Assembly (NCBI GenBank): GCA_023898585.1
Contig: CP060229.1
Location: forward strand, 247,707 to 311,706
DNA: 64,000 nucleotides
Reading direction: 5' to 3'
Source: Candidatus Nomurabacteria bacterium
Lineage (GTDB): Bacteria; Patescibacteriota; Minisyncoccia; Phycocordibacterales; UBA918
Under the pieces are notes generated by a model that made no database searches, was not told the DNA's origin, and saw nothing but the letters and a program-made list of their open reading frames with translations. Below, one piece after another: positions 1,937 to 53,842 of this stretch (position 1 is its first letter; each line of letters begins with the position of its first letter). The position numbers and the translations under genes were made by a program.

Positions 1937-2002
1937 AATTTAGCCCACGTAATGTACTACATGGGGATTATTTTGCAAGTTATTTGACAGCTTCTAGAAA
2001 AG

Positions 2003-2097
2003 AAAATCCGTCTTTGCGGGACGGATTTAAAAGAAACCATGTACGTGGGGTGCCGGGCACCGATATAATAATGAGGAGATTTACACCCCACGTACGC
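2003..2097 (-). terminator. Two tandem hairpins between the M50 protease gene and the rpsL promoter region
   Basis: AAATCCGTC-tttgcgg-GACGGATTT at 2004-2028 and a 13-bp inverted repeat GTACGTGGGGTG...CACCCCACGTAC at 2038-2097. On the minus strand both are followed by U-rich tracts. Confidence 0.5.
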
Positions 2098-2148
2098 TCC
2101 TCTCGGTCGGCGACGAGCAAAAAACTATTTGCTTAAATATAACACGAT

Positions 2149-2784
2149 TTATATTCCTATCAAACTGGTTGTTAGCCAAAAGGTTAATTCGTAGAGCGGG
2201 CGAGACAGCACAAAGACAAATATTAAAATGATTATCATGAACGACAGTCCGGCGTTTTGTTCCATCTTTCTTCGAAAATCATCGTACTTCATAGCCAAAG
2301 AAAAAGGCAGAAGTTTGGGTAGTATCTTCGAACCGTCAAGCGGAGGAAACGGCACCAAGTTGAAGCAAGCTAGGAATATATTAAGGAGAATAATCATGAA
2401 AGACAACTGTACAAAACTGTCACTAAGACCTAGCACATCGGCACTGCGAACCAAGACCGAGAAAATAACTGCGATAGCGATGTTTGAAGCCGGTCCGGCT
2501 ACAGCCACAATCGCTTCCCCCCATCTTTGGTTTGTGAAATTGTATGGGTTGTACGGCACGGGTTTGGCCGCGCCGAAAAGAATGGGTGAGCCTGAAAAAA
2601 GCAGAAGGCCAGGTAAAATCACTGACATCATTGGGTCAAGATGGACAAGCGGATTGGGACTAAGTCGTCCGGCCAGACGGGCGGTTGGATCCCCGAGCCA
2701 ATTGGCGGCGTAGCCGTGAGCCATTTCATGAATAATAACTGAAATAATTAGTGCGACGATCATCGCAATTTGTGTTGGTTCCAT
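2149..2784 (-). CDS. Site-2 protease family zinc metalloprotease (peptidase M50)
   Basis: HEMAHG zinc motif and a multi-TM profile. Start taken at MEPTQIAM (cat 2782-2784) so the gene does not overlap rpmB. Confidence 0.8.
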   Translation of the reverse strand: MEPTQIAMIVALIISVIIHEMAHGYAANWLGDPTARLAGRLSPNPLVHLDPMMSVILPGLLLFSGSPILFGAAKPVPYNPYNFTNQRWGEAIVAVAGPASNIAIAVIFSVLVRSADVLGLSDSFVQLSFMIILLNIFLACFNLVPFPPLDGSKILPKLLPFSLAMKYDDFRRKMEQNAGLSFMIIILIFVFVLSRPLYELTFWLTTSLIGI

Positions 2785-2865
2785 AAGATATGGTTTATAG
2801 TACTGGGGAAGGCTTGCAATATCAAGCGCACGTGGTAGGATGTCGCAACTAAAACAAGTATCTTT

Positions 2866-3108
2866 ATGGCCAAACAATGTGACATCACCGGTAAAAAGAC
2901 CCAAATGGGGGGTCGTTATTCAAACCGCACTCGTGCGACACAATTTAATCCGTGCGGAAAAACCACTCGTCAACCTAATCTGCAGAAGAAGAAGATCTTT
3001 GTTCCCGAGCTTAACAAGTCGGTGACGGTGAAGGTCTCAGCTTCCGCTCTCCGCACTATTGCAAAAAACGGTGCTTTTGAGACTCTGAAAAAGGCAAAAC
3101 TTATCTAA
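2866..3108 (+). CDS. rpmB: 50S ribosomal protein L28
   Basis: MAKQCDITGKKTQMGGRYSNRTRATQFNP...VTVKVSASALRTIAKNG matches the L28 pattern (VCQVTGK...N.SHA...R.F.PNL...L.VSA...R.I.K.G). Confidence 0.85.
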   Translation: MAKQCDITGKKTQMGGRYSNRTRATQFNPCGKTTRQPNLQKKKIFVPELNKSVTVKVSASALRTIAKNGAFETLKKAKLI

Positions 3109-3172
3109 GTGAAAGGTACCCCTTTCTTAAGACAACTTTTGCAAGTATTATCACTTAAACAATACAAGCAAT

Positions 3173-3448
3173 ATGTCCAAGAAAGGATACAAGATATCAG
3201 CTGAGATCAAAGAAGAAGTTATCAATAAAATCAAACACGAAGGCTTGAGTGTTAGTGATACTGCCAACCAATACGGCATCAGTAGTCGAACCATTTATGA
3301 TTGGCTAGGTACAAAGGCCACGGGTACGGTCAGTCTCCTTGAACACAACAAACTCAAGAAGGAAAACGAACAACTCAAACAAATCATCGGTGACCTCACC
3401 ATAAAAATGTCCATTGAGGCTAAAAAGGGGCTCTCCAAGGGATGGTGA
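3173..3448 (+). CDS. IS3-family transposase OrfA (HTH plus leucine zipper)
   Basis: 91 aa with an HTH (NQYGISSRTIYDWL) and a leucine-zipper-like LKKENEQLKQIIGDL, as in IS3/IS911 OrfA. Confidence 0.85.
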   Translation: MSKKGYKISAEIKEEVINKIKHEGLSVSDTANQYGISSRTIYDWLGTKATGTVSLLEHNKLKKENEQLKQIIGDLTIKMSIEAKKGLSKGW

Positions 3449-4288: not shown

Positions 4289-5152
4289 CTCAACCCACAC
4301 CTCTTTTCCATCGCTTTTAAAAATGATCGCTCCGCGCTCTGCCGTACTTAGCACCTCCGCTCCGGTCGCTTTAGCTCGTGCCAGAACCGACTCTTTTGGG
4401 TGTCCGTAACGATTGTTATTTCCGGCCGAAACGACGGCGTACAAAGGCTCTACAACTTTTAAGAATTTAGAATCGGATGATGTTTCTGAGCCGTGGTGAC
4501 CCAACTTAAGAACTTCGCTTTCCAATTGTTCCCCGTAGATATCAACCAAATAATTTTCAATACCGATGGGAGCATCGCCGGTAAGCATGAAACCCACTTC
4601 ACCATATTGGAGCTGTAGCACAATCGAGGCGGTGTTGTTCTCCCAATTAGTCGTGTCACCTTTGGGTGACAATATTTTGACTGTCGTTGATGCTCCGAGC
4701 TCGATAATTTGTCCGGCTTTTGCCGAAACCACGTGCGCGCCTTCGGCGCGCACGACCTTATCAAAAGCAATGACCGCTTGCGAATCACCTTCCACTTCCG
4801 TTTCCATAATCGCTCCTATCTGATACTTCTCTATTACATCCACTAAGCCTCCTATATGGTCGGTATCAGGATGCGTTGCAACCACAATATCTATTGAACG
4901 ATCAAAGAATGATCTCCCGTTAGCCAGCTCTCGCAAAACGGAACCACCCGGTCCACCGTCGATTAACATCTCATATCCATCAGGAGTTATGATGTGAATT
5001 GAGTCACCTTGACCGACATCTAAAAAACGAACTGTGAGTAACTGCGATTCATCTGCTTGCGAGAGAGAGACAAACGGAAACCAAACCACAACAGAAACGA
5101 CAAGCAAAAGCGTTAAGATGATACTTCTCACCAACAGAAAGCGGTCTGACAT
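4286..5152 (-). CDS. ComEC/Rec2-related metallo-beta-lactamase domain protein (stand-alone C-terminal part of ComEC)
   Basis: VRFLDVGQGDS...DGGP...ATHPDTDHIGG...LKLGHHGS is the ComEC-type MBL fold, behind a signal-anchor N-terminus. Start chosen at MSDRFLL (cat 5150-5152). Confidence 0.75.
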   Translation of the reverse strand: MSDRFLLVRSIILTLLLVVSVVVWFPFVSLSQADESQLLTVRFLDVGQGDSIHIITPDGYEMLIDGGPGGSVLRELANGRSFFDRSIDIVVATHPDTDHIGGLVDVIEKYQIGAIMETEVEGDSQAVIAFDKVVRAEGAHVVSAKAGQIIELGASTTVKILSPKGDTTNWENNTASIVLQLQYGEVGFMLTGDAPIGIENYLVDIYGEQLESEVLKLGHHGSETSSDSKFLKVVEPLYAVVSAGNNNRYGHPKESVLARAKATGAEVLSTAERGAIIFKSDGKEVWVE

Positions 5153-5211
5153 ACCACATGATACAATGCGTATAAACAATAAAGAACAATTAACGCACAC
5201 TAATTATTTAT

Positions 5212-5790
5212 ATGAGATACGAACCGCTAACATTTGACATCCCGGAACTGGAAGGAATGTCAAGAGATACAATCGATAATCATCTTGGTCTGTACAGAGG
5301 TTATGTAAAACACGTGAATCTGATTCAAGAAAAAATCGAATCATACAGTAACGACTTCAAAAATAATTCATTTGCCATTTCAGAGATGCAACGTCGTCTT
5401 GGGTTTGAGTTTGGCGGAATGCGTAATCACGAATATTACTTTTCCCAGTTTGAAGGTGGCGCAAAAAACCTACCTGAAGGTTCTCTAAAAACAAAATTGG
5501 AACAACAGTGGGGAACGTTTGATAACTGGTTTGAACACTTCAGACAAATCGCCAACACTCGGGGAGTAGGATGGGCTATGCTCTACCATGACCCACATAC
5601 CGATCAGCTGATACAAACTTGGGTGGACGAACAACAAATCGGGCAATTGGCTGATTTGGACATCATCTTAGCATTAGATATGTGGGAGCATTCATACATG
5701 CGTGACTATACATCCAGCGATAAGGGTAAATATGTCGACGCATTTTTTAGAAATCTTAATTGGGAGGTGGTGTCGGAGAGACTGGTTTAA
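5212..5790 (+). CDS. Fe/Mn-family superoxide dismutase
   Basis: HLGLYRGYVKHVN near the N-terminus and DMWEHSYMRDY near the C-terminus, matching the metal-ligand motifs HHxKHH and DVWEHAYY. 192 aa. Confidence 0.85.
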   Translation: MRYEPLTFDIPELEGMSRDTIDNHLGLYRGYVKHVNLIQEKIESYSNDFKNNSFAISEMQRRLGFEFGGMRNHEYYFSQFEGGAKNLPEGSLKTKLEQQWGTFDNWFEHFRQIANTRGVGWAMLYHDPHTDQLIQTWVDEQQIGQLADLDIILALDMWEHSYMRDYTSSDKGKYVDAFFRNLNWEVVSERLV

Positions 5791-5820: not shown

Positions 5821-7401
5821 TTAGCGAAAAAAGATTGGTAAGTCGGAATCGACTGGCGAGCCTGGTGGTGTTTTACTGATCTGTCCGCCTACCGATTCTG
5901 TTTCTTCCACTATGGTCCAATCGGATAATGAGCTTTTTGAATTTTTCTTGGTTTTAAAATAATACCAAGCAGACATCATGAGACCATACAACACAACCAC
6001 CACCCCAAACGAAAACTCAGGAATCGTTACTGTAGCAAATGGTAGCATCGCAAACCACTTGGCCACCAATAAGATGTAGCTGAGCGAAATGTGAGAGACA
6101 TACCCGATGATGCCGGCCAACGAAGTTGAGACTAAACCAAGCAGACCGGTAGAAAATGTGAGTAGCATGGCCGGCGCCACCATTGGAAGCACGAGAACAT
6201 TTACCAAGACCGCAATCAAAGAAACTTCACCAATGTGATACATAAGCAAAGGACAGACGGCAATCTGGGTCGAGACTGTTGCTAGGAAAAACTCACGCCA
6301 GCCCGGTCTGCTTTTTTTGCGAATAACCGTTGATTCAAATTCGGGAACAATCAGTAACAATCCCAAAGTGGCCATAAACGATAGTTGAAATCCGATGTCG
6401 TAAACAAGTATATAAGGATTGACACAAACCATTACCACACCGGTAAGCAGGAGTGCTCGCATTACATCGTATCTTCTTCCCAATACCTGTGCCAATAGAA
6501 CCAAACCGGCCATTATACTGGCTCGAACAACAGTAGCCGAAAGGCCAACTATCAACGCGAAACAAACAATCGCGAGAACCCCGAACACCACCCGGTAACG
6601 AACAGGTAGTAAGAACGAAAAACAAAACATTATGAACGCCACCACCAACATGACGTTATAGCCAGAGAGTACAACGATGTGAATTATTCCGGTACGTCGA
6701 AAGTCTTGTTCGATGTCTTCGCCAAGAGCCGATTTAACGCCGAGCAATAAGCCCTCACCAAGTCCGACAGCGGGTTGTGGGATGATTTGTTCAAGCGAAT
6801 CAATGAACCTGTGTTTCGTGTATAACAGCCCGGCAATAATAGGGTTGGCCTCACCTGAGTCCACCACTTCCACCTCGGCAAAAGAAATATTGTATTCCAC
6901 CCCCTTTGCTTTCAGATAGCCCGGATAATCAAAGGTTCTACCAAGATCGGTTTCAAATTCTTTCGGCTTCTCTAATTTACCTGAAACGATTACTCTATCG
7001 CCATACGAATAAGCACTGAGGTGGTCTGCGGTGGCGAGAATCAGATCATCATCTGTCTTTATATAAAGGTGAACTGTCTTTTCTCGATAATCCGGCTCTT
7101 GAACGACAACACCTTCGAGCATGACCGGTTGACCAAGTGAGAATTCGAGAGGAGATTTGTTAAATTGCCAAGAAGCGATTTCGGTTCGGAGAATGCCAAG
7201 TGAAGAGGCAAATAAGACCAGACTGGTAATGAGGAGGTATGGCGCCGAAACAGCTTCGCTGTTTCGGCGCCATACCAACCCCACCCCGAGTGCTAGTAGC
7301 AACATCCAAACGACAACCTCCAGTGGTATCTCATACACAGTCCGTAGCCCAACCCCGATCAAAAAAGACAAAACGCCACTAATCACGATTTGCGATTGCA
7401 T
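5821..7401 (-). CDS. comEC: ComEC/Rec2 competence protein, N-terminal DUF4131 plus membrane competence domain, with no MBL domain
   Basis: Polytopic membrane protein. An OB-like DUF4131 region (VVQEPDYREKTVHLYIKTDD) is followed by the competence-domain block RRTGIIHIVVLSGYNV. Confidence 0.8.
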   Translation of the reverse strand: MQSQIVISGVLSFLIGVGLRTVYEIPLEVVVWMLLLALGVGLVWRRNSEAVSAPYLLITSLVLFASSLGILRTEIASWQFNKSPLEFSLGQPVMLEGVVVQEPDYREKTVHLYIKTDDDLILATADHLSAYSYGDRVIVSGKLEKPKEFETDLGRTFDYPGYLKAKGVEYNISFAEVEVVDSGEANPIIAGLLYTKHRFIDSLEQIIPQPAVGLGEGLLLGVKSALGEDIEQDFRRTGIIHIVVLSGYNVMLVVAFIMFCFSFLLPVRYRVVFGVLAIVCFALIVGLSATVVRASIMAGLVLLAQVLGRRYDVMRALLLTGVVMVCVNPYILVYDIGFQLSFMATLGLLLIVPEFESTVIRKKSRPGWREFFLATVSTQIAVCPLLMYHIGEVSLIAVLVNVLVLPMVAPAMLLTFSTGLLGLVSTSLAGIIGYVSHISLSYILLVAKWFAMLPFATVTIPEFSFGVVVVLYGLMMSAWYYFKTKKNSKSSLSDWTIVEETESVGGQISKTPPGSPVDSDLPIFFR

Positions 7402-7487
7402 TTCATAAGTGTAGCAACCAATTAAAAAACCACCCGTAGGTGGTTGGGTACATAAGCGGACTCGAGTCCGCTTATGTACAGATTCGA

Positions 7488-7673
7488 TCAGCTGACAGCT
7501 ATTTTGAGCCTTACTTTATTCACTTGGCTCTGGGCCATCTTTTGCCGTTCCTCGAGCATTGTAACTCGGTAGACGGTCTGACGACCGGCCCTATTTCGTT
7601 GCTCAACCATAACCTCTTCAATCTCATTATCGGCGATGGTTTCTCGTATTTTTTGTCTTCTGTCAAACGACAT
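7488..7673 (-). CDS. Small hypothetical protein (61 aa)
   Basis: The internal Met MSFDRRQKIRETIADNEIEEV... is preceded on the minus strand by a strong RBS (AAGGAGGGaatcATG). The longer TTG-initiated track ORF is probably an over-extension. Confidence 0.45.
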   Translation of the reverse strand: MSFDRRQKIRETIADNEIEEVMVEQRNRAGRQTVYRVTMLEERQKMAQSQVNKVRLKIAVS

Positions 7674-35214: not shown

Positions 35215-35290
35215 AGTGAGCAAACTGCTTTGCTCATGTGAGGAATCGAAGGACGGAACGATGTGAGGAAGAATGACGAACGAGCGAGTC
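35215..35290 (+). repeat. Conserved tRNA-downstream element, copy A
   Basis: AGTGAGCAAACTGCTTTGCTCATGTGAGGAATCGAAGGACGGAACGATG... is close to 53792-53842. It contains the hairpin TGAGCAAA-ctgc-TTTGCTCA and an inverted T-loop-like GGAATCGAAGG. Confidence 0.7.
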
Positions 35291-35987: not shown

Positions 35988-36707
35988 TTACTTTTCAAGA
36001 GAAAATTCTCCAAGTATTTTCTGTTGGTAGACATGACCAGCATCAGTGACTGCAGAGAAGTAGATTTTTTCTACTTTCATCTCCACCACTCCTATCTCTC
36101 GATTAAATTTTGGATGTTTGATTAAACCCTTATGTTCTCCAGCTAAATATCCAATAGACATGTGGGGGTTGTAATTTTTGTATCGGTATTCTGGATGAAG
36201 ATCAAAGGGAATGGAATCTGCCAGCTGGTTGTGTAGAACGAAAATATTTCCATTCCTATCGTAGACTTCGCGAAAAATAGTTCCAGGGAAGTAATTTATA
36301 TTACCCAACTCGACAGAAAATTTAGGGAAGTTCTGCACAACCTTCTCGACAGAGCTACGTATTGAGTCAACATCTCTCTCTTGAAATTGTTTACCCATTC
36401 TACCTGGAATCATCAGTGTTATGTGCATATCCTCACTAGAGAGCCAGAGATTTGCCAGACTAGCAGGAACCATAGCTTGTAAATTATCGGATACAACTCT
36501 CATATGTTCATAACAACTTGGGTGTAACGGTACATTAATGCAACACAAGGTCGTTGAATCTTCCCGCCACAATGTATCACCAAAAGTTTTCTTGGTGTTT
36601 TCCCAGATCTCATCGAAATGTTTTATTTGTACTTGGTGGGTACGCATGCTATCCATTACGTTATTAACATCTCTCCTTATAATACTGCTTTTACAACGAT
36701 TGTTCAC
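35988..36707 (-). CDS. 2H-phosphoesterase superfamily protein (LigT / 2',3'-cyclic phosphodiesterase-like)
   Basis: Two H-x-T/S-x motifs (MHITLMIPG and PHMSIGY) in the expected spacing. The start may be an internal Met. Confidence 0.65.
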   Translation of the reverse strand: MNNRCKSSIIRRDVNNVMDSMRTHQVQIKHFDEIWENTKKTFGDTLWREDSTTLCCINVPLHPSCYEHMRVVSDNLQAMVPASLANLWLSSEDMHITLMIPGRMGKQFQERDVDSIRSSVEKVVQNFPKFSVELGNINYFPGTIFREVYDRNGNIFVLHNQLADSIPFDLHPEYRYKNYNPHMSIGYLAGEHKGLIKHPKFNREIGVVEMKVEKIYFSAVTDAGHVYQQKILGEFSLEK

Positions 36708-36763
36708 GTAAAAACAGGAAGTCAGTTACCTCCTGTAAAATAAATCATCTGATTTTTTAGTAC

Positions 36764-37249
36764 CTAGTCAAAGTCCAAAACATCAGACAGGTATTGTCCT
36801 GATTGTAAGAATACAACGTTGCAACCTTCGAAGTCAGAAAGGATCTCTTTGTTTGTTTTATGAGCATTTGTCATGATCTTCTCGACCACTTCTAACTTGT
36901 TACCTCTATCAATGTACCGTTGTCGATACTCATCTTTGAGTGACTCGTCAGGACAGATGACAGTGACAGACAATCCTCTTTCCCTGAGCGCTTGAACAAC
37001 TACAGGATTGGTTGTGATGAGCACCAAATCTGTGTCCCTGGAACGCTCTATAACTTCTTCTATGTAGTTGTTTGGCCAATCCTCTGCTTTTGTATACGGA
37101 GTTGGCTCTATATCAGCTACAGTTATATCGTCGGACAGACCTCCGGTCATAGTCGATTTGCCAACACCGGGCGCTCCAGCAATGATTCCTACAGGTTTAA
37201 TTTTTTCCACACTAGGAACTCCTTCATTTATTTGTTCAAATTTCTCCAT
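36764..37249 (-). CDS. Small P-loop kinase/NTPase (polynucleotide or nucleoside kinase-like)
   Basis: Walker A GAPGVGKST and a Walker B-like DLVLITT. 161 aa. It lies 56 nt upstream of the 2H phosphoesterase on the same strand. Confidence 0.6.
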   Translation of the reverse strand: MEKFEQINEGVPSVEKIKPVGIIAGAPGVGKSTMTGGLSDDITVADIEPTPYTKAEDWPNNYIEEVIERSRDTDLVLITTNPVVVQALRERGLSVTVICPDESLKDEYRQRYIDRGNKLEVVEKIMTNAHKTNKEILSDFEGCNVVFLQSGQYLSDVLDFD

Positions 37250-37315: not shown

Positions 37316-37416
37316 GGGCGAGGAGCAATCTCAACTCGCCCATTACCACGATCACAGAAGGTACACACCAGAGTCTGAGCCTATCTCTACGCTAGAGCTC
37401 TGATGAGGGTTTTTGC
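37316..37416 (-). promoter_or_regulatory. Conserved leader/riboswitch-like element, copy 1, 3' part (terminator hairpin plus conserved core), truncated by IS1595
   Basis: Aligns with 39978-40095, with the core TTACCACGATCAC...GAGTCTGAGC...AGCTCT-ATGAGGGTTTTTGC. Hairpin GGGCGAG...CTCGCCC is followed on the minus strand by UAUCUUUUGAGG, about 65 nt before the kinase start. Confidence 0.55.
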
Positions 37417-38442
37417 GGAGTAAAGAAACTTTTTAGGACCTATTTAGTAGCTCAGAAATAACCCTAAGCCTTCTGTCTCTCCTCAGTCCATGGTGTTGGG
37501 CGATTTTCTTTTTGAGTGACGCAAAGTATTCATCAATAGTATTGGTGGTGTTAGGAATATTAAGCTCTGGATATTTTTGGTAGGTAAATAAATTAGGCAA
37601 GTTTCGTTTCAGTGACATATAGGCACTACGTACATTCTTGTGTGTGTAGTACCAATGGTTAGTACAGGTAACGTACGTTTTCTCAGTATAGAAATTATGA
37701 TACTTCTCCTCCCAAATAGTTAGAGCTTTAGCAAAGTCTTCTTCGTTTGTTTTCGTGAGTGTTAAAGCCAGTTTTCGCAGTTCTTTACCAGCTTCAGTCT
37801 TTGGCTTTCTAGTTAAGTACTTGGTCACGGTCTTCAGTTGATGAAACTGACAGATTTGTACTGGTATATCCTTAAAAACCGTTGCTAATCCACGCCTTCC
37901 GTCCACTACGGCAGCGATGAATGTCCAACCACGTTCTTCTAATAATTTACGAGCGTAGTGATAGTGAGACACTTTCTCAGTCTCAACCTCACCCCACCAA
38001 ATGTTTCTTCGTAAGTTCCATGATCTAAAGACACAGACACCGTAGTGTCGTCCCCAGAAGGTGGTGTCAGCTACGATAACCGTCTTTTGTGGTTGTATGT
38101 TTGGTATTGAGGTTTTAACTTGATCTAATCGTGTACGTACCCAGACGTGACTCTTCTTGTATTTGTTAGACAGTTCGGTCAGCGTTTGTTTTTGATGTGT
38201 ATACTCTTCCCATAATTTATTAACCAACCCTGTTTCTCTCTGCTTAGTTTGAAATCGTTTACCACAATCGTTGCAACCATAGCGCTGTCTACCACTTTGT
38301 TTACCTTTCTTTTTAGTTTGTAATGATAAACAATAGGGACATCTAACTCGTTTATTAACCATGCGAGCTAGATAAACATAAAACCACGGCTATACAGAGC
38401 CGTGGTTTTGGTGTTTTAGGTCCTAGATTGTTTCTTTAGCCC
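37417..38442 (-). mobile_element. IS1595-family insertion sequence, 1026 bp, 8-bp target-site duplication GTTTTTGC
   Basis: Imperfect 24-nt terminal inverted repeats (GGAGTAAAGAAACTTTTTAGGACC on the left; GGGCTAAAGAAACAATCTAGGACC as reverse complement on the right). GTTTTTGC flanks the element at 37409-37416 and 38443-38450. The uninterrupted target sequence is seen at 40089-40096. Confidence 0.8.
37433..38362 (-). CDS. IS1595-family transposase (N-terminal zinc ribbon plus DDE)
   Basis: RCPYCLS...YGCNDCGKRF zinc ribbon, followed by a DDE-type core (IVADTTFW, AAVVDGRRG). Confidence 0.75.
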   Translation of the reverse strand: MVNKRVRCPYCLSLQTKKKGKQSGRQRYGCNDCGKRFQTKQRETGLVNKLWEEYTHQKQTLTELSNKYKKSHVWVRTRLDQVKTSIPNIQPQKTVIVADTTFWGRHYGVCVFRSWNLRRNIWWGEVETEKVSHYHYARKLLEERGWTFIAAVVDGRRGLATVFKDIPVQICQFHQLKTVTKYLTRKPKTEAGKELRKLALTLTKTNEEDFAKALTIWEEKYHNFYTEKTYVTCTNHWYYTHKNVRSAYMSLKRNLPNLFTYQKYPELNIPNTTNTIDEYFASLKKKIAQHHGLRRDRRLRVISELLNRS

Positions 38443-38511
38443 GTTTTTGCCTATGTATGCCACTCATCCCGCCTGTGTGTCGTTTGTTGTCTCAAAATTC
38501 TGGGACTCACC
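38443..38511 (-). promoter_or_regulatory. Conserved leader/riboswitch-like element, copy 1, 5' part
   Basis: TTTTTGCCTATGTATGCCACTCATCCCGCCTGTGTGTCGTTTGTTG...GACTCACC, about 90% identical to 40096-40152. Confidence 0.55.
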
Positions 38512-38534: not shown

Positions 38535-39902
38535 TTAAGCTGGATTACCTTTTGCAAAAGCGATGTAAAACCAAACTATCAGTCCCAACACACACGCCAC
38601 GATTCCGGGCACAGCGTTCATTAGAAAATCGGTGAACATGCCTTGCCACATCATGTAGAGGTAAACTCCGGTACCAGCCACAGTGACCAGGAACATTCCT
38701 CGGTCCAACGCTCGGCTGACTCCTTTGCTGTAAACTGAAGCAAACAAGGCCGGCGTCAAGACTGCCAAGAGAGTCAGTGCTCCGACAATGAAAGTAACGA
38801 CGTTAGTGATAGTAAGAGCTACAACGGTCAACACGACGAAGGCTATCGCAATCAATGTCCTGAGAGTTCTTCGATAGCGAGCCGGATTTTCATCCTTGTC
38901 AATTCCCAGCCAATTTGATGCGATAGTTGACAGAAACAGATACGCCTGCGTATCAACCGAACTCATGGTAAGGGCCAAGAGAGCCACGCTGATAATCGTA
39001 CCAAGCACCGGACTAATTGCTCCATCGGCCAAAGTATACAGAATCGTGTTCGGATCCGCTTCCGGATAGAGTGCCACCAGCGTCATACCAAAGGCAATAA
39101 TCACAAAGTAGATCGGCAGGTACGTGACACTGTATAGAGTCAGTGACTTGCGGGCAATCTTGGCACTGCCGGCAGTGTACATTCTCTGCCAAATCGCCGG
39201 CAAGGGATAAAACATCAGACCAAAGAAGAGTACTGTGCCCAATACACTGCGCCAATCCCCACCCATCATAAAGCTTTCCGTAGCAAACGAAAACGACGGC
39301 AAATCTGACACAAAAAGAGCCACAATAAGAACCAGAATTATCGCCAAAAATTGAACGATGTCTGTTTTAATAACTGTTTTGTAGCCCCCAACAAACATAT
39401 AGAGCCCGACAATTACCGAAGCAATTATCACCCAAAATGTTAACCCTCCGGCAAACAAGGTGCTGAAAATCTGACCGGTAATATGCAAGAGCGAGGCAGC
39501 TTGGGCTGCTACCAGCACAGTAACTATTACCAGTATCAGCGAGCTGGTCCAAGTCCCGATCTGCGACTTGAGCATATCGTTTTGGGTTAGATAGCGCTTT
39601 TCCTCCACCAATCGGCGGATGCGCGGAGCTTGGACATACAGAATGATGGCAGCTAGAATAATTCCCGCCACGAACCAGTACAGACCAAAGCCCATCACTC
39701 CGGCCAAAGCGACCAGAAAAACCAGTCCTGCCCCGTCTATCGTACTTACAAACAGCGAAGAAAAAGTTCCCAGTACTGATACATTATGGTTTTCACTGGC
39801 GAATTCCAGATCACTTTCACTTCTTAAAGCACGATAGGTAATAAATGCGAGCAAGCCTAAATAAATCAATACGGCTCCCACGACATAGATACTTATTGTC
39901 AT
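38535..39902 (-). CDS. Sodium:solute symporter family transporter
   Basis: 455 aa, about 13 TM helices, with an SSS-family topology and G-rich motifs. Substrate unknown. Confidence 0.7.
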   Translation of the reverse strand: MTISIYVVGAVLIYLGLLAFITYRALRSESDLEFASENHNVSVLGTFSSLFVSTIDGAGLVFLVALAGVMGFGLYWFVAGIILAAIILYVQAPRIRRLVEEKRYLTQNDMLKSQIGTWTSSLILVIVTVLVAAQAASLLHITGQIFSTLFAGGLTFWVIIASVIVGLYMFVGGYKTVIKTDIVQFLAIILVLIVALFVSDLPSFSFATESFMMGGDWRSVLGTVLFFGLMFYPLPAIWQRMYTAGSAKIARKSLTLYSVTYLPIYFVIIAFGMTLVALYPEADPNTILYTLADGAISPVLGTIISVALLALTMSSVDTQAYLFLSTIASNWLGIDKDENPARYRRTLRTLIAIAFVVLTVVALTITNVVTFIVGALTLLAVLTPALFASVYSKGVSRALDRGMFLVTVAGTGVYLYMMWQGMFTDFLMNAVPGIVACVLGLIVWFYIAFAKGNPA

Positions 39903-39977
39903 ATTTAGTTTTTTAATTTTTATTATCTCTCTCTGCGCACTACGTTGTTTTTGCTATGTAATAAGCAGAGAAGATAG

Positions 39978-40152
39978 CGGGAACAAACAACTATTTTGTT
40001 CCCGCAATAAACCTTTACCACGATCACGGCCGGTACACGTCGAGGAGTCTGAGCTGATCTCCCAATGAAGCTCTAATGAGGGTTTTTGCCTATGTATGCC
40101 TCTCATCCCGCCTGTGTGTCGTTTGTTGCCTAAGAAATTACTTAGACTCACC
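39978..40152 (-). promoter_or_regulatory. Conserved leader/riboswitch-like element, copy 2 (intact), upstream of the symporter gene
   Basis: About 175 nt aligning with copy 1. On the minus strand a long-range GAGUCU/AGACUC pairing and a GAUGAG/CUCAUY helix are possible. Terminator hairpin GCGGGAACAAA...UUUGUUCCCGC plus UAUCUUCUCU lies about 75 nt before the symporter ATG. Confidence 0.55.
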
Positions 40153-40215
40153 GCCACCATGCATCCTTGTTGATTTATTACGCGCAGGCAGGAACCAAGG
40201 TCTGCGCGTGCGAAC

Positions 40216-41154
40216 TCACTTGGTCCACAGTTCCAGTTCACGCCGATTCAGGGCATTTACCTGCTCCTCATACACTTCTGAGAAGTCGCTCAACTTGAGA
40301 TATTCCTTACCCCAAGGAGCGTAGAACTGTCCGTCCCAGCGGAGCACCACATTAGATGTGGCGATGACACTGTCCGGGTAGTAGACGATCCTACTACCGT
40401 TCGGGGTTTCAGCTTCGAGGCTGTCACCCGTGTCACTCGGCGCCCACGAGAACTCACTAAGAGAACCTCGCAGTATGCGCACGAACTCCGAGTCGTAGAG
40501 ATTGATGAGCTTCGGGATACCCGACAGTAGCACATCAAATCCTTCCCTCACCGTACGTTCGTCGGTAAAGTTGACCTGACCGCGTTTAACGGTCTCTGGG
40601 AAATTGACCACGAGCGCGACCGACATCGGAACATCATAGTCCCGGAGGCGCGCTTCGAAGTCGGACCAACCGTCAAACGACCACGGACTGAACGCGGTTG
40701 ACACGATGGGATCAAATCCAAGCGCTTTGAGGCGCAGGATCGTATCCCAAGCTTTGTCAAACGAGCCAACCTTGCGGCGCTGACGGTCGTGAGCTTCTGG
40801 CGACCCATCGAGGGAGATGCTGATATGGCCATACCGCGACAAGAAATCCTCTCTGCGCATTATGGTATAACCGTTATCAATGATTCCCAACGGAATGTCC
40901 CTTGCGAAACACTCCTCGATGAACCGCTCGCCTCGCGGTGTGAGCGTGCGACCGGCATAAACCACCGGCACACCCCACTTCGCGACTTGATCCGCCTGTG
41001 CAGTCCAGTCATTCCCATCTTTGGGCGACCCGACACCATGCGGCCAGAAGCAATGTTCGCACTTGAGGTTGCACTCAGCGACCGGGACCGCATCCACGCG
41101 TACCGGGTGCAAACTGTACAACTCGCCATTCATCCACTTTTCAATTGCTTTCAT
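40216..41154 (-). CDS. Radical SAM enzyme (CX3CX2C, no SPASM domain), function unknown
   Basis: AECNLKCEHCFW cluster, a glycine-rich region, IIDNGYT and ISLDGS motifs. Start at MKAIEKW has a good RBS (GAGGAAAGAGAAATG). The gene is GC-rich relative to its flanks. Confidence 0.75.
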   Translation of the reverse strand: MKAIEKWMNGELYSLHPVRVDAVPVAECNLKCEHCFWPHGVGSPKDGNDWTAQADQVAKWGVPVVYAGRTLTPRGERFIEECFARDIPLGIIDNGYTIMRREDFLSRYGHISISLDGSPEAHDRQRRKVGSFDKAWDTILRLKALGFDPIVSTAFSPWSFDGWSDFEARLRDYDVPMSVALVVNFPETVKRGQVNFTDERTVREGFDVLLSGIPKLINLYDSEFVRILRGSLSEFSWAPSDTGDSLEAETPNGSRIVYYPDSVIATSNVVLRWDGQFYAPWGKEYLKLSDFSEVYEEQVNALNRRELELWTK

Positions 41155-41739
41155 TTCTCTTTCCTCTTGGTTAGTAGAAATTGCAGCGCTAGTACTCACG
41201 CTGCTGTTCCTACCAACCAAGCTAGAGAATAGTGACAAAGAACAAATCTCAATGGATGCTCGATCTTTGATCAAGCACCTAATAGAGAGGAGGAAGTGTC
41301 TACTTCCTCCGAAATTTAAATGGCAGCCTGAGAAACGTGGCGCTGCCAGACCCCGCTGCCTTCCCGACAGAGGGCGTCCCTTTCAGGACTTTGGCCTTGG
41401 CGGCTCTTTACCCTTAGGCCCGGCGATAACACCCATGGTGTTCCCCCTACCGTTTGGACCGACGGTTTCGGTTTGGGCAGTATGCCCGCTTGACCGTGGA
41501 ACCTCCTTCCCTTTGGGACCGGCGACTGCTGGCATGGTTCTCTCCTCGCCCCCATGGGCTGTTGCGGGGCAGACGCCCCAGGTGTGATGAACTTTGAACT
41601 GCGATAATCATAGCCCAAAGTAGCTTGACAGTTAAATTATTATGTTGCTTTGTGTGCTAATTGGTATAATTACTTTGTTTATTGGGCTTTTTTGGAGTTT
41701 ATGTATTGACGGATTTCCCGTTATTTTTATAATAGAAGG

Positions 41740-42561
41740 ATGTCTAAAGTGACTGATTTAGCACAAACCATTGGCTTGGAAGCCACTGAGTCAACAGTGT
41801 TTAGCTCGCTCTTAGCCGGTGGGCGACAGAATGTCGCCCGCCTCACCCGCGCCTGTGGTGAGCCCCGTTCCACCGTAATCGATACACTCGCCCGCCTCCA
41901 AAAGCGCGGTCTAGTCCGACCAGTCCCAATCGGCAAACACACGGAATGGAAAGTTACCAACGCCATCACGCTGGCGGAGAAATTTCTGCGCGTGGCAGAA
42001 CTATTGCAGGCGCCAGCCGACACTGGCACGCAAGAAAAACATCTGCATCTCCAACTATCACGCGAGTCGGAATTCACCATCTTTGTCGGCTGGCGCAATA
42101 TGATCGCTATCTACAAGCGCGAAATGATCGCCCACGCAAACCAACGTCTTTTGGCAATGCAAAGTGCATCTTCAATCAAGACGGCTTTAGAAAAAGCTGG
42201 TTCTGACGATTTCATACCGGTCAACGATGCCATTCGTGAACACAAGGTAATCATCGAAGCAGTGATTGGCGAAGGGATGTTGAAGTGGTACACCGAACAA
42301 GATCCAAATTGGGTAAAAAGCCTTGAGGGCCGAACGATCGCCTACCGAGTGGTCGAAGACGAACTTCTCGACTTCACCGCCGAACTACTAATATTCAACA
42401 ACCTATTCTTGCTCGTGAACTGGCAAGAGGAAGTGCTGATCCTCATCAAAAACCAACAAATGCTCAACATGATGAAAAAGCTTCATACTCTCATGTATGA
42501 AACCGGCCATCAGTTTGATCAAAATGAGTATTTGCGTAAAGTATTGGAAAATAGGAAGTGA
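41740..42561 (+). CDS. TrmB-like / MarR-type winged-helix transcriptional regulator
   Basis: N-terminal wHTH (ESTVFSSLLAGGRQNVARLTRACGEPRSTVIDTLARLQKRGLV). 273 aa. Confidence 0.6.
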   Translation: MSKVTDLAQTIGLEATESTVFSSLLAGGRQNVARLTRACGEPRSTVIDTLARLQKRGLVRPVPIGKHTEWKVTNAITLAEKFLRVAELLQAPADTGTQEKHLHLQLSRESEFTIFVGWRNMIAIYKREMIAHANQRLLAMQSASSIKTALEKAGSDDFIPVNDAIREHKVIIEAVIGEGMLKWYTEQDPNWVKSLEGRTIAYRVVEDELLDFTAELLIFNNLFLLVNWQEEVLILIKNQQMLNMMKKLHTLMYETGHQFDQNEYLRKVLENRK

Positions 42562-42605: not shown

Positions 42606-43118
42606 ATGAAAATCTCAATTATTGGACCCAGTGCCGGAGGTAAAAGTGTGCTAGCGAGAAAATTGTGTGAAAAATTTTCTCTACCAATGTTAGGGTTAGA
42701 TCGACTCTGGTTTCGTCACGGCGGAACTAACGCAAATACTACCGAACAAAAACAAGAGATAAACAAAAAGATTAGAGCGGACATAGAACAATTTGTAATT
42801 AGTAATGATAACTGGGTTACTGAAGGCACATACTCCAAAATCCAATTGTTCATTGCAAACAAAGCAGATACTGTAATTCTGATCAAACGACCTTTTCTTA
42901 GTCGATTGTTTAGCCACGTATTAAGAGTGATAAAGGGTAAGGATCGACATCCAGAAGTCACAAAGTGGCAAGACTTATGTTTCGCAAGAACGATATTTAG
43001 GCGCTGGCGAAATGGCGAAAATAAAAGTATTGAAGAGCTGGTTGGTCAGTTTAAAGGGAAGACTGTCGTCCTGAAAAGTTTTCAAGATATCGACCGCTAC
43101 TTTGACTCACTTCTATAA
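42606..43118 (+). CDS. P-loop NTPase, adenylate-kinase-like / topology-modulation-protein-like small kinase
   Basis: Walker A IIGPSAGGKS. 170 aa. Confidence 0.6.
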   Translation: MKISIIGPSAGGKSVLARKLCEKFSLPMLGLDRLWFRHGGTNANTTEQKQEINKKIRADIEQFVISNDNWVTEGTYSKIQLFIANKADTVILIKRPFLSRLFSHVLRVIKGKDRHPEVTKWQDLCFARTIFRRWRNGENKSIEELVGQFKGKTVVLKSFQDIDRYFDSLL

Positions 43119-53245: not shown

Positions 53246-53491
53246 GACTCACCCTCGCTTTTTTTTAACAGGAGTGTTATATTTTGCTGACTTAAATCAC
53301 GTTTGTGGTTTTTGTTTGGGTGATCGGGGTGTATCTTCGACTGCGGGCTCGATACATTCCCTCTTTGTTCGGTCATGGTGTGCTATGCAAGCGTAGCTTG
53401 CATCAAGAAATTTTTACCGAGAAGCCGTAAGCAAGCTTCCGCTGCTCGGGAAAAATTTCTTGACTTCTGCACACCACGACGCTCACGACAT

Positions 53492-53533
53492 CGGGGTGTA
53501 GCATAATGGTAGTGTACGCGGTTTGGGGTCTGT
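53492..53533 (+). repeat. 5' fragment of tRNA-Pro (about 42 nt, diverges after the anticodon loop)
   Basis: CGGGGTGTAGCATAATGGTAGTGTACGCGGTTTGGGG, then unrelated sequence. Confidence 0.6.
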
Positions 53534-53562: not shown

Positions 53563-53633
53563 CGGGGTGTAGCATAATGGTAGTGTACGCGGTTTGGGAC
53601 CGCGCGGCCCGGGTTCGATTCCCGGCTCCCCGA
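53563..53633 (+). tRNA. tRNA-Pro (anticodon UGG); U6-U67 mismatch and two G-U pairs in the D stem
   Basis: CGGGGTG-TA-GCAT-AATGGTA-GTGT-A-CGCGG-tTTGGGa-CCGCG-CGGC-CCGGG-TTCGATT-CCCGG-CTCCCCG-A. The architecture parallels E. coli tRNA-Pro(UGG). Confidence 0.7.
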
Positions 53634-53704
53634 CGTAGCCCGAAATGGAAATTGAAAGAATTGACCAACAAGCTGGGAGCTTGTTGTGGCTTCGAAGAAG
53701 GCGT

Positions 53705-53733
53705 GGCCCGGGTTCGATTCCCGGCTCCCCGAC
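53705..53733 (+). repeat. 3' half copy of tRNA-Pro (T arm plus acceptor 3' strand)
   Basis: GGCCCGGGTTCGATTCCCGGCTCCCCGACA. Confidence 0.7.
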
Positions 53734-53736
53734 AAA

Positions 53737-53791: not shown

Positions 53792-53842
53792 AGTGAGCAA
53801 ACTGCTTTGCTCACGTCGGGAATCGAACGGCGGAGCGATGAG
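53792..53842 (+). repeat. Conserved tRNA-downstream element, copy B
   Basis: AGTGAGCAAACTGCTTTGCTCACGTCGGGAATCGAACGGCGGAGCGATGAG versus copy A at 35215. Confidence 0.7.

What the first reader, a model, noticed from the sequence alone, without database searches (positions are those of the whole stretch)
40040..42100. GC-rich island carrying a non-SPASM radical SAM enzyme, GC-rich repeats, a TrmB-like regulator and a small P-loop kinase
Seen in sequence: 40.2-42.1 kb is visibly more GC-rich than the flanks (for example CGCGCTTCGAAGTCGGACCAACCG runs), which suggests horizontal acquisition. One copy of the ~175-nt leader element sits at its edge. The rSAM has CNLKCEHCFW but no C-terminal Cys cluster. 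Inference (weak): the CN[LY]KCxxCF[WH] cluster resembles both SPASM-type maturases and the viperin cluster CNYKCGFCFH. Established knowledge: prokaryotic viperins are often found beside nucleotide kinases, and a small P-loop kinase lies 1.4 kb away. A defence (viperin-like) role or a RiPP-maturase role both need testing.
Basis: partly seen in the sequence, partly recalled or inferred. Interest (0 to 1): 0.6.

Follow-up and report, generated by a model that had tools for sequence, protein, structure and literature searches.

The report
Radical SAM enzyme with tiny peptide partners
The GC-rich patch is a compact three-part cassette (regulator, radical SAM enzyme, unannotated tiny basic peptide genes with the core AG(S/P)KGxxPPRP) that recurs in ultra-small Patescibacteria and is most likely an undescribed peptide-modification system, not an antiviral viperin.

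Summary
Window 40.2-42.6 kb is compositionally foreign: the radical SAM (rSAM) gene has the highest GC3 of 50 window genes (0.651 vs 0.44±0.067). It has one CxxxCxxC cluster and no auxiliary Cys. A TrmB-type wHTH gene lies divergent to it.

The new point is that the "GC-rich repeats" are coding. ORF 41383-41535(-) carries two AGPKGKE..PR(P) units that differ only at synonymous sites. The motif Ax[S/P/C]K[G/K]xx[P/V/A/I/T]PRP, in 15-52-aa ORFs with strong RBSs, lies within 670 nt of the rSAM on the same strand in 18 of 20 distinct loci. The other two loci are truncated contigs. This holds down to 31% enzyme identity, with 28 of 28 motif hits and none elsewhere in 221 kb. Variation is concentrated at third codon positions.

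A relative (L031) keeps the same regulator, promoter and RNA elements but carries a different peptide family with an unrelated rSAM, so peptide and enzyme swap together. A covarying stem-loop with an invariant AAGUACU loop precedes the rSAM.

Viperin HMMs fail. The P-loop kinase has host-like composition and is not a conserved neighbour.

Best reading: a new RiPP-like cassette, mobile among Patescibacteria. Its chemistry and product role are unknown.

The parts
40216..41154 (-). Radical SAM enzyme, 312 aa. One CxxxCxxC cluster (C28, C32, C35), one further conserved Cys (C82), no SPASM/twitch cysteines, and a family-specific C-terminal domain.
   Evidence: Pfam PF04055 36 bits. All NCBIfam equivalogs are far below cut-off. 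Family alignment A2. Cys count. AF2 pLDDT 92. Best PDB sequence hit is SkfB, E 4.7e-11. Only 21 cluster representatives at E<=1e-30 among 1.84 billion.
41383..41535 (-). Candidate precursor-peptide ORF, 50 aa: MPAVAGPKGKEVPRSSGHTAQTETVGPNGRGNTMGVIAGPKGKEPPRPKS. It holds two core units: a degenerate unit at 41491-41529 and a canonical unit at 41392-41430. The second unit has its own Met and RBS (41436-41383, MGVIAGPKGKEPPRPKS).
   Evidence: RBS GAGGAGAGAACC precedes the ATG. The two AGPKGKE units differ at 5 synonymous sites and no non-synonymous sites (sequence). The motif is conserved beside the rSAM in 18/20 loci. Codon-position entropy in conserved columns is 0.20/0.11/1.65 bits. No Pfam or NCBIfam family.
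41289..41359 (-). Post-peptide non-coding element (41307-41359, shared with L031) followed by the terminator-like hairpin GGAGGAAGT-AGAC-ACTTCCTCC (41310->41289). It is a possible attenuator between the peptide gene and the rSAM.
   Evidence: BLAST to L031: 85% identity over 53 nt while the flanking cargo is unrelated. Terminator-like scan. Equivalent hairpins occur in L026 and L027.
41165..41222 (-). Conserved 5' leader stem-loop just upstream of the rSAM RBS: 18 bp in two helices with an invariant loop, AAGUACU.
   Evidence: RNAalifold finds 18 pairs, 10 with compensatory changes. 97.2% of cells are paired, and 0 of 500 shuffles reach the observed value. The antisense strand reaches only 85%. 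CM R1 scores 66.9 bits here. No Rfam match.
41607..41635 (-). Promoter-like site for the peptide-rSAM operon (TTAACT-17-TATGAT).
   Evidence: Consensus scan, 9/12. This stretch and the 5' UTR down to 41583 are 80% identical to L031. This is a consensus match only; function is inferred.
41705..41733 (+). Regulator promoter (TTGACG-16-TATAAT, 41706-41733), overlapped by the palindrome TAACGGGAAATCCGTCAAT (41705-41723), the candidate operator. The -10 box ends 6 nt before the ATG, so the mRNA is near-leaderless.
   Evidence: Promoter scan 11/12. The palindrome pattern is unique in the window (0.16 expected; 15 of 100 shuffles give at least one). It sits at the equivalent place in L003, L004, L006 (twice), L011 and L031.
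41740..42561 (+). Divergent TrmB/MarR-type winged-helix protein, 273 aa, with an uncharacterised C-terminal domain of about 190 aa. It is the only conserved protein partner of the rSAM.
   Evidence: Pfam TrmB 35 bits. The PDB profile matches only the wHTH of ZitR/AdcR/ArsR/TrmBL2. A homologous divergent gene of about 205-290 aa is called in L001, L003, L004, L026-L028, L030 and L032-L034; homology was checked by alignment for six of these. The AF2 model is confident only for residues 12-72.
40012..40152 (.). Intact copy (B) of a repeat of about 141 nt, lying in the 3' region of the rSAM and upstream of the symporter gene. It marks the island's left edge. A terminator-like hairpin follows at 39977-40005 (-).
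   Evidence: BLAST to 37340-37416 (77%) and 38443-38511 (90%). Terminator scan. No significant fold.

Best explanation
The island is a three-component peptide-modification (RiPP-like) cassette of Patescibacteria. The host here is Candidatus Nomurabacteria.

Proposed working:
1. A TrmB-type winged-helix regulator, transcribed divergently, binds a palindrome in the shared promoter hub (inferred).
2. The opposite promoter drives a small gene encoding one or more copies of a basic core peptide, [V/I][V/I]AG[S/P]KGxxPPRP. Here it is a two-unit, 50-aa ORF. Its coding status is shown by its substitution pattern.
3. A terminator-like hairpin and a conserved AAGUACU stem-loop separate it from the rSAM gene. 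They probably set the peptide:enzyme expression ratio or mRNA stability (inferred).
4. The rSAM enzyme has a single 4Fe-4S/SAM site, a SPASM-clade core that has lost the auxiliary-cluster cysteines, no RRE, and an acidic pI of 5.1. It recognises the short core directly and abstracts a hydrogen within the invariant K-G-x-x-h-P-R-P segment (inferred).

The chemistry is unknown. With no auxiliary cluster and one conserved extra Cys (C82), epimerisation or another redox-neutral change is the most economical guess.

The cassette is GC-rich because it is recently acquired or exchanged cargo. Peptide and enzyme move together on a conserved regulatory scaffold.
For: 1. Co-occurrence. The motif [AGP]x[SPC][KR][GK]xx[PAIVT]PRP gives 28 hits in six-frame translations of 221 kb. 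All lie within 670 nt of a family rSAM and on its strand. They occur in 18 of 20 distinct loci; the other two are contigs that end at or just past the rSAM. This holds from 100% down to 31% enzyme identity.
2. Coding. In conserved columns, entropy at codon positions 1/2/3 is 0.20/0.11/1.65 bits. Strong Shine-Dalgarno sites precede the ORFs and stop codons follow soon after PRP. The window's two units differ only synonymously.
3. RiPP-like precursor features. Multi-core ORFs carry 2-3 units (window, L027, L028, L030, P0176), and other loci carry tandem single-unit genes (L001, L004, L010, L032).
4. Coupled swap. L031 shares the regulator (78% aa), the promoter/5' UTR (80% nt) and the post-peptide element (85%). 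It carries three MAFxLTNVSRKAxxLRDFARRIxRF peptides and an unrelated rSAM.
6. Foreign composition. GC3 z is about +3.1, and the value equals that of the homologues in GC-richer hosts L001 and L003 (0.64-0.65).
7. Cassette replacement. A related Nomurabacteria genome (L012) has flanks 76-83% identical in nucleotides, but its cassette rSAM is only 41% identical in protein.
8. Mobile-type neighbours. There is an IS256-type element 1.8 kb away, a large serine recombinase beside L032, and HicAB beside L033.
Against: - No modification has been observed; the enzyme-substrate link rests on genomic association only.
- No protease, transporter or RRE is conserved nearby, which is unusual for secreted RiPPs.
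- The precursors are nearly leaderless (1-8 residues before the core).
- The first unit in the window is degenerate (VPRS instead of PPRP), and it is unclear whether one 50-aa product or a 17-aa product is made.
- Part of the GC excess comes from Gly/Pro/Ala/Arg codons in the peptide region.
- In several lineages the cassette sits near the same HU/RNase Y/tRNA-Gly neighbourhood, so some inheritance is vertical rather than horizontal.
- The regulator homologues are only about 25% identical where the enzymes are about 70-75% identical. The partners therefore do not evolve in step.
Confidence: 0.6

Rival explanations
1. Prokaryotic viperin-like defence. The rSAM would make a chain-terminating nucleotide and the nearby P-loop kinase would supply or process the substrate.
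Against: PADLOC pVip gives 13.7 bits, E 0.0078. No viperin model is among the best 25 NCBIfam hits, all 27 bits or less, whereas NCBIfam's prokaryotic viperin model (NF038283) has a cut-off of 180 bits. SuiB, SkfB and anSME score as well or better structurally. The kinase is in none of the other loci and has host-like GC3 of 0.353. The conserved partners are a regulator and peptides.
Confidence: 0.03
2. The rSAM acts on a non-peptide substrate (a small molecule, lipid or nucleic acid). The tiny ORFs would be co-regulated small proteins or cis-regulatory leader peptides, for example PPRP ribosome-stalling sensors, and not its substrate.
For: There is no RRE, protease or exporter. The top (very weak) NCBIfam hit is HpnH, and BlsE is among the PDB hits. 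PRP/PP motifs can stall ribosomes (general knowledge). In the window, L026, L027 and L033 the ORF lies upstream of the enzyme.
Against: In most loci the peptide genes lie downstream of the rSAM, often in 2-3 copies, which does not fit a leader-peptide sensor. Peptide family and enzyme family swap together in L031. The association persists to 31% enzyme identity with motif drift (A[ST]CKG..VPRP in L032), as expected for co-evolving partners.
Confidence: 0.15
3. Same enzyme-peptide pair, but the product is an intracellular peptide-derived cofactor or a modified small protein (PQQ- or mycofactocin-like logic), not a secreted natural product.
For: The precursors are tiny, like PqqA or MftA. No export or protease genes are conserved. 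The cassette lies among housekeeping genes (HU, RNase Y, NusA) in several genomes.
Against: The core has no aromatic or acidic residues of the kind used in known peptide-derived redox cofactors. Multi-core precursors and tandem variant copies are typical of natural-product RiPPs. No accessory tailoring enzymes are present. The distribution is patchy and mobile.
Confidence: 0.15
4. The GC-rich repeats are non-coding (a structured RNA or repeat DNA) and the ORF is fortuitous.
For: The ORFs are unannotated and absent from the 5.8-billion-protein database, apart from one 52-aa entry. Conserved RNA-like elements do flank them.
Against: Third-codon-position variation is about 8-15 times that of positions 1 and 2 across 24 instances. 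RBS-ATG spacing and stop placement are conserved. No Rfam match.
Confidence: 0.03

Closest known systems
SPASM/twitch radical SAM RiPP maturases (SkfB, SuiB/StrB, CteB, PapB)
   Different: There are no auxiliary-cluster cysteines (4 Cys in all) and no RRE domain. The precursors are nearly leaderless, 15-52 aa, and often multi-core, with a basic Gly/Pro/Lys/Arg core lacking Cys, Trp or Tyr. The family is restricted to Patescibacteria. No NCBIfam or Pfam model exists for enzyme subfamily or peptide.
Radical SAM peptide epimerases (YydG/epipeptides; PoyD-type)
   Same: These are rSAM enzymes acting on small ribosomal peptides. YydG is a weak PDB sequence hit (E about 0.08). From general knowledge, their mechanism needs a Cys H-atom donor, which conserved C82 could in principle provide.
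   Different: Similarity is marginal. YydG carries an auxiliary cluster. The role of C82 is pure inference, and the peptide family is unrelated.
Viperin / prokaryotic viperins (pVips)
   Different: The enzyme fails the viperin HMMs. No kinase is conserved nearby. The conserved partners are peptides and a regulator.
PqqE/PqqA and MftC/MftA peptide-derived cofactor systems
   Different: Those systems need a PqqD-type RRE, a SPASM domain and further tailoring enzymes, and their cores contain Tyr or Glu. None of this is present here.
Anaerobic sulfatase-maturating enzyme (the JGI name 'AslB' on homologue P0008)
   Different: TIGR03942 scores 17.6 bits against a cut-off of 349. There is no SPASM domain. 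The peptide lacks the C/S-x-P-x-R sulfatase motif. The source annotation is therefore not supported.

Membership tests
Prokaryotic viperin (pVip) | Scores above threshold on viperin profile HMMs | tested here: not met
   PADLOC pVip gives 13.7 bits, E 0.0078. No viperin model is among the best 25 NCBIfam hits, all 27 bits or less. NF038283 has a cut-off of 180 bits (seen).
Prokaryotic viperin (pVip) | Recurrent association with a nucleotide kinase or a defence-island context | tested here: not met
   The P-loop gene is present only in same-species contigs. It is absent from all other loci. Its composition is host-like. PADLOC gave no hit for the P-loop kinase, and apart from the sub-threshold pVip match, only generic winged-helix (Csa3/CasR) and trypsin-like protease-domain similarities for neighbouring genes.
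Prokaryotic viperin (pVip) | Nucleotide-triphosphate-binding residues in the C-terminal extension | not tested
   No residue-level superposition was possible with these tools.
SPASM/twitch rSAM peptide maturases | CxxxCxxC radical SAM core related to the SPASM clade | tested here: met
SPASM/twitch rSAM peptide maturases | C-terminal Cys-rich domain binding one or two auxiliary Fe-S clusters | tested here: not met
   Only one Cys lies outside the SAM cluster (C82, conserved in 17/19). There is no conserved C-terminal Cys in 19 family members.
SPASM/twitch rSAM peptide maturases | RRE (PqqD-like) leader-recognition domain, fused or adjacent | tested here: not met
   No PqqD or RRE Pfam hit in the rSAM or its neighbour. 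The rSAM core starts at about residue 20. The neighbour's wHTH matches DNA-binding families. A divergent RRE-like role for it is not excluded.
RiPP biosynthetic cassette (generic) | A short precursor gene is co-located and co-occurs with the modifying enzyme across taxa | tested here: met
   18 of 20 loci carry the motif. All 28 motif hits are adjacent and on the same strand, with none elsewhere. The coding signature is shown. The coupled swap is seen in L031.
RiPP biosynthetic cassette (generic) | Post-translational modification of the peptide by the enzyme | not testable with these tools
   This needs biochemistry or mass spectrometry.
Housekeeping rSAMs (QueE, PflA/NrdG activases, MoaA, anSME) | Reaches the curated cut-off of the family model | tested here: not met
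   Every NCBIfam hit is 27 bits or less, against cut-offs of 225-725. The family is a sharply separated group of about 21 cluster representatives.
TrmB-family transcription regulators | N-terminal TrmB-type winged helix | tested here: met
   PF01978 scores 35 bits against a cut-off of 25.6. The PDB profile hits ZitR/AdcR/TrmBL2 wHTH domains.
TrmB-family transcription regulators | TrmB-type C-terminal effector (sugar-binding) domain | tested here: inconclusive
   There is no Pfam or PDB sequence match beyond residue 100 or so. The AF2 model of the C-terminal part is unreliable (pLDDT below 50).
Horizontally acquired genomic island | Composition deviates from the host, context varies between relatives, and mobility genes are nearby | tested here: met
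   GC3 z is about +3.1. A related Nomurabacteria genome has a 41%-identical enzyme in a 76-83%-identical neighbourhood. Contexts differ in L001, L003, L004, L032 and L033. An IS256-type element lies 1.8 kb away. No direct repeats or integrase bound the island itself.

The most novel reading that the evidence does not exclude
Patescibacteria carry a modular platform for making peptides. A TrmB-like regulator, a shared promoter hub and shared RNA signals (the AAGUACU stem-loop and the post-peptide element) host interchangeable cargos, each consisting of tiny cationic peptide gene(s) and a dedicated auxiliary-cluster-less radical SAM enzyme. The AxxKGxxxPRP peptides would be a new class of leaderless, often multi-core RiPPs made by RRE-independent recognition. 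Because PRP motifs are the pharmacophore of ribosome-targeting proline-rich antimicrobial peptides (general knowledge), the products might act on the translation machinery of the episymbiont's host or of competitors.
Probability: 0.35. Interest if true: 0.8.

Novelty: new variant of a known kind. Interest (0 to 1): 0.64.

Why it matters
Patescibacteria (CPR) have about 1-Mb genomes with almost no secondary metabolism, and little is known about the molecules they use to deal with hosts or competitors. A recurrent, mobile rSAM-plus-peptide cassette with its own regulator would be a rare example of specialised peptide chemistry in this group.

The enzyme is a SPASM-clade rSAM that has lost its auxiliary cluster and has no RRE, yet is tied to a 13-residue core. 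That makes it a compact test case for how rSAM enzymes recognise substrates without leader peptides.

The peptide genes are invisible to current annotation. They are absent from a 5.8-billion-protein database, so the family would be missed by standard genome mining.

The covarying AAGUACU stem-loop is a candidate new cis-regulatory RNA.

Tried and rejected
- **Viperin/kinase defence.** Rejected on HMM scores, lack of kinase conservation and composition.
- **anSME, the name a source gives a homologue.** Rejected.
- **Rfam families.** Gathering-threshold search of the whole window and E<=1 search of 39.9-41.76 kb found nothing but four tRNAs.
- **Regulator structure.** A 3-sequence alignment gave pLDDT 50, usable only for the wHTH, so no fold search was run.
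- **Peptide in protein databases.** One marginal 52-aa hit only. NCBIfam and Pfam gave none.
- **The 141-nt edge repeat as a structured RNA.** Folding z is -0.24. It is not part of the cassette in other loci.
- **The post-peptide element as a covarying RNA.** Only 2 of 8 predicted pairs show compensation. Left as an observation.
- **The hairpin as a DNA operator rather than RNA.** Disfavoured because 24 G·U pairs make the sense strand 97% paired against 85% for the antisense.
- **Literature.** Four term combinations on Patescibacteria/CPR/Parcubacteria with radical SAM and RiPP or precursor peptide found no description of this system. The library is incomplete, so this is not proof of absence.
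Full report
**Observation**

The GC anomaly is real. The two 1-kb windows covering 40-42 kb have GC 0.544 and 0.517, against about 0.44 elsewhere. A 200-nt profile shows 0.50-0.62 across about 40.0-42.1 kb, broken by an AT-rich hub at 41.6-41.75 kb. Among 50 long ORFs of the window:
- the radical SAM (rSAM) gene (40216-41154, minus strand) has the highest GC (0.552) and GC3 (0.651; mean 0.440, sd 0.067);
- the divergent regulator gene (41740-42561) is second (GC3 0.557);
- the P-loop gene (42606-43118) is host-like or lower (0.353), so it is not part of the island.

The host is a Candidatus Nomurabacteria bacterium. An identical rSAM protein carries that name and occurs on a 995-kb contig.

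**The enzyme**

The true start is the ATG at 41154, preceded by GAGGAAAGAG, giving 312 aa. Pfam sees only the generic Radical_SAM domain (36 bits). NCBIfam gives only weak partial hits of 27 bits or less, against cut-offs of 225-725. These are mostly SPASM-type peptide maturases, NirJ and HpnH.

The family alignment shows C28-x3-C32-x2-C35 and a single further semi-conserved Cys (C82, 17 of 19). There is no C-terminal Cys cluster. A profile search of 1.84 billion cluster representatives finds only 21 at E<=1e-30, after which scores drop sharply. The family is therefore small and distinct. All named members are Patescibacteria, apart from one bin labelled Bdellovibrionales.

**What the GC-rich repeats are**

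On the minus strand, a 50-aa ORF (41535->41383) follows a strong RBS: MPAVAGPKGKEVPRSSGHTAQTETVGPNGRGNTMGVIAGPKGKEPPRPKS. Its two AGPKGKE units differ at five synonymous positions and no non-synonymous ones (sequence).

The same kind of ORF turned up in relatives:
- upstream of the rSAM in L026, L027 and L033;
- immediately downstream in L001, L004, L006, L009, L010, L012, L013, L014, L017, L028, L030, L032 and L034;
- upstream in L011.

Examples are MRNPLDAVVAGSKGMKPPRPR, MAVIAGSKGRKAPRPKRKS and MPAVAGSKGKRPPRPRKD. Three-core forms also occur, such as MTVIAGSKGIRPPRPLEGVIAGSKGVQPPRPGMPAPAGSKGVKPPRPKG. At 31% enzyme identity the form is MPSAASCKGAKVPRPRRKKLKAD.

A regular expression for the core gives 28 hits in all six frames of 221 kb. 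Every hit lies within 670 nt of a family rSAM and on its strand. Eighteen of 20 distinct loci have one, and the two without are contigs that end at or just after the rSAM.

Across 24 instances, entropy in the conserved columns is 0.20, 0.11 and 1.65 bits at codon positions 1, 2 and 3. That is the signature of selection on the amino-acid sequence.

The peptides are basic (pI mostly 10-12) and the enzyme is acidic (pI 5.1). They match no Pfam or NCBIfam family. They are essentially absent from the protein database, with one 52-aa two-core entry.

**The conserved partner and the scaffold**

The only protein-coding neighbour that recurs is a divergently transcribed protein of about 205-290 aa. It has a TrmB/MarR-type winged helix and an uncharacterised C-terminal domain. 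The six relatives aligned are homologous over their full length, though only about 25% identical to the window's copy.

Its promoter (TTGACG-16-TATAAT, 11/12) overlaps the palindrome TAACGGGAAATCCGTCAAT. This pattern is unique in the window, although its chance expectation is not negligible (0.16; 15 of 100 shuffles give at least one match). It recurs at the equivalent site in L003, L004, L006 (twice), L011 and L031. I take it to be the operator; this is inference.

A promoter-like site on the other strand (41635->41607) would drive the peptide-rSAM transcript. A terminator-like hairpin (41310->41289) follows the peptide gene.

Just before the rSAM RBS is a stem-loop (41165-41222), also present in nine other loci. 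It has these properties:
- 18 base pairs, 10 with compensatory changes;
- 97% of cells paired, with 0 of 500 shuffles reaching the observed value;
- an invariant AAGUACU loop;
- only 85% pairing on the antisense strand, because 24 G·U pairs become A·C, so it is an RNA feature of the mRNA and not a DNA operator;
- no Rfam match.

A covariance model finds it only in the closer (66% identity or more) enzyme subgroup, and weakly in L031 and at a second site in L006.

**Peptide and enzyme move together**

L031 carries a regulator 78% identical to the window's. Nucleotide homology runs from the regulator through the promoter hub and 5' UTR to 41583 (80%), and covers the post-peptide element at 41307-41359 (85%). 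Its cargo is different: three copies of MAFxLTNVSRKAxxLRDFARRIxRF-type peptides and an rSAM with no similarity beyond the cluster motif.

L006 has two paralogous peptide+rSAM pairs in tandem, a third rSAM, and further small ORFs with the same upstream sequence motifs. Enzyme and peptide being exchanged as a unit on a shared regulatory scaffold is the strongest indirect evidence that the peptide is the enzyme's substrate or partner.

**Origin of the GC excess**

The window's rSAM has the same GC and GC3 (0.55/0.65) as its homologues in L001 and L003, whose flanks are GC-richer (0.50-0.52).

In a related Nomurabacteria genome (L012), the RNase Y/HU/tRNA-Gly neighbourhood is 76-83% identical in nucleotides to window 31.7-35.2 kb. 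Its cassette enzyme is only 41% identical in protein. This indicates replacement of the cassette and not vertical descent.

Contexts differ in L001, L003 and L004. L032 sits beside a large serine recombinase and L033 beside HicAB.

In the window, an IS256 'Zn-variant' element (37417-38442; transposase 311 bits) lies 1.8 kb away. It has an 8-bp target duplication and sits inside one copy of a 141-nt repeat whose intact copy abuts the rSAM.

On the other side, several lineages keep the cassette near HU/RNase Y, so inheritance is partly vertical. Gly/Pro/Arg codons also contribute to the GC of the peptide region.

**Viperin and kinase**

The PADLOC pVip model gives 13.7 bits. No viperin model ranks among the NCBIfam hits. 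The P-loop protein (weak AAA_33; 61 bits to 'DNA topology modulation protein' models, below cut-off) is in no other locus and is compositionally native. The defence reading is not supported.

**Mechanism, with status**

Shown:
- the composition anomaly;
- the enzyme's single-cluster architecture;
- the coding status of the peptides and their tight, strand-specific, cross-lineage association with the enzyme;
- the covarying mRNA stem-loop;
- the coupled cargo swap.

Inferred:
- the regulator controls both promoters through the palindrome;
- the hairpins tune the peptide:enzyme ratio or transcript stability;
- the rSAM binds the core directly (there is no RRE) and abstracts a hydrogen within the invariant K-G-x-x-h-P-R-P segment.

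The reaction is unknown. Absence of an auxiliary cluster and presence of one conserved Cys make a redox-neutral change such as epimerisation the simplest guess. The biological role (antimicrobial, signal or intracellular factor) is open.

**Novelty**

I found no family model or paper describing the enzyme subfamily, the peptides or the stem-loop. The literature search covers an incomplete library.

In kind this is an rSAM-dependent RiPP-like system. It is a variant in its enzyme architecture, its leaderless multi-core basic precursors, its lineage and its modular scaffold.

Noticed in passing
window 37417-38442 (transposase 37433-38362, minus strand): A complete small IS of the IS256 'variant Zn-binding type' (NCBIfam NF048019, 311 bits). 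It has 22-nt imperfect inverted repeats 4 nt in from each end and an 8-bp target-site duplication, GTTTTTGC. The same-species contigs carrying this rSAM are only 1.6-5.2 kb long.
   Followed up: yes
window 40012-40152 and 37340-37416 + 38443-38511: Two direct copies of an intergenic repeat of about 141 nt bracket the sodium:solute symporter gene (38535-39902). One copy is split by the IS. It has no significant RNA fold and its function is unknown.
   Followed up: partly
L031 (Logan SRR29850984 contig), minus strand 1-1300: L031 has the same regulator, promoter and RNA scaffold as the window, but carries three tandem 30-31-aa peptides (MAFxLTNVSRKAxxLRDFARRIxRF..., amphipathic and basic) and an unrelated rSAM (MFITFIVPAPNGCNLRCPGC...). 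This is a second candidate peptide/rSAM family.
   Followed up: partly
L006 700-8600 (contig CAYVHS010000014.1): This island holds three rSAM genes (1964-3376, 4653-5615, about 6440-7489), several small basic ORFs, and a 184-aa protein (MTNIVILIVEDKDEE...) with no Pfam hit that also occurs in L011. It looks like a multi-cassette version of the system.
   Followed up: partly
upstream of peptide and rSAM genes in window (about 41235-41260), L001, L003, L004, L006, L011, L026, L027, L031: A recurrent sequence, usually a hairpin followed by (C)ATAGAGA-N1-3-GTTCTTTGA, lies about 50-75 nt before the start codons of both peptide genes and rSAM genes. This was seen by eye only. It could be a processing, promoter or protein-binding signal.
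   Followed up: no
after peptide stop codons in L001 (x2), L004 (x2), L006, L009, L012, L026, L027; variant in window 41307-41359 and L031: A conserved 3' element: hairpin, then GGCGCUG...CAGCGU, then an invariant GGCAACA, then a variable hairpin. RNAalifold found little covariation (2 of 8 pairs).
   Followed up: partly
window 53488-53527, 53563-53634, 53701-53736: A full tRNA-Pro gene is flanked by two partial copies of itself (98% and about 92% identical fragments). Separately, a 49-nt repeat occurs downstream of both tRNA-Gly (35215-35263) and tRNA-Pro (53792-53840). These may be scars of integrative elements.
   Followed up: no
window 41733-41740: The regulator's -10 box ends 6 nt before its ATG, and there is no Shine-Dalgarno sequence. 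This suggests a leaderless or near-leaderless mRNA.
   Followed up: no
L032 876-2192 and L033 2629-3106: The most divergent cassettes sit beside a large serine recombinase (L032) and a HicAB toxin-antitoxin pair (L033). This is consistent with carriage on mobile or variable regions.
   Followed up: no
window 35988-37249: Between tRNA-Gly and the IS lie a LigT-like 2'-5' RNA ligase family protein (Pfam 2_5_RNA_ligase2, 53 bits) and a 161-aa P-loop NTPase. Neither was examined further.
   Followed up: no
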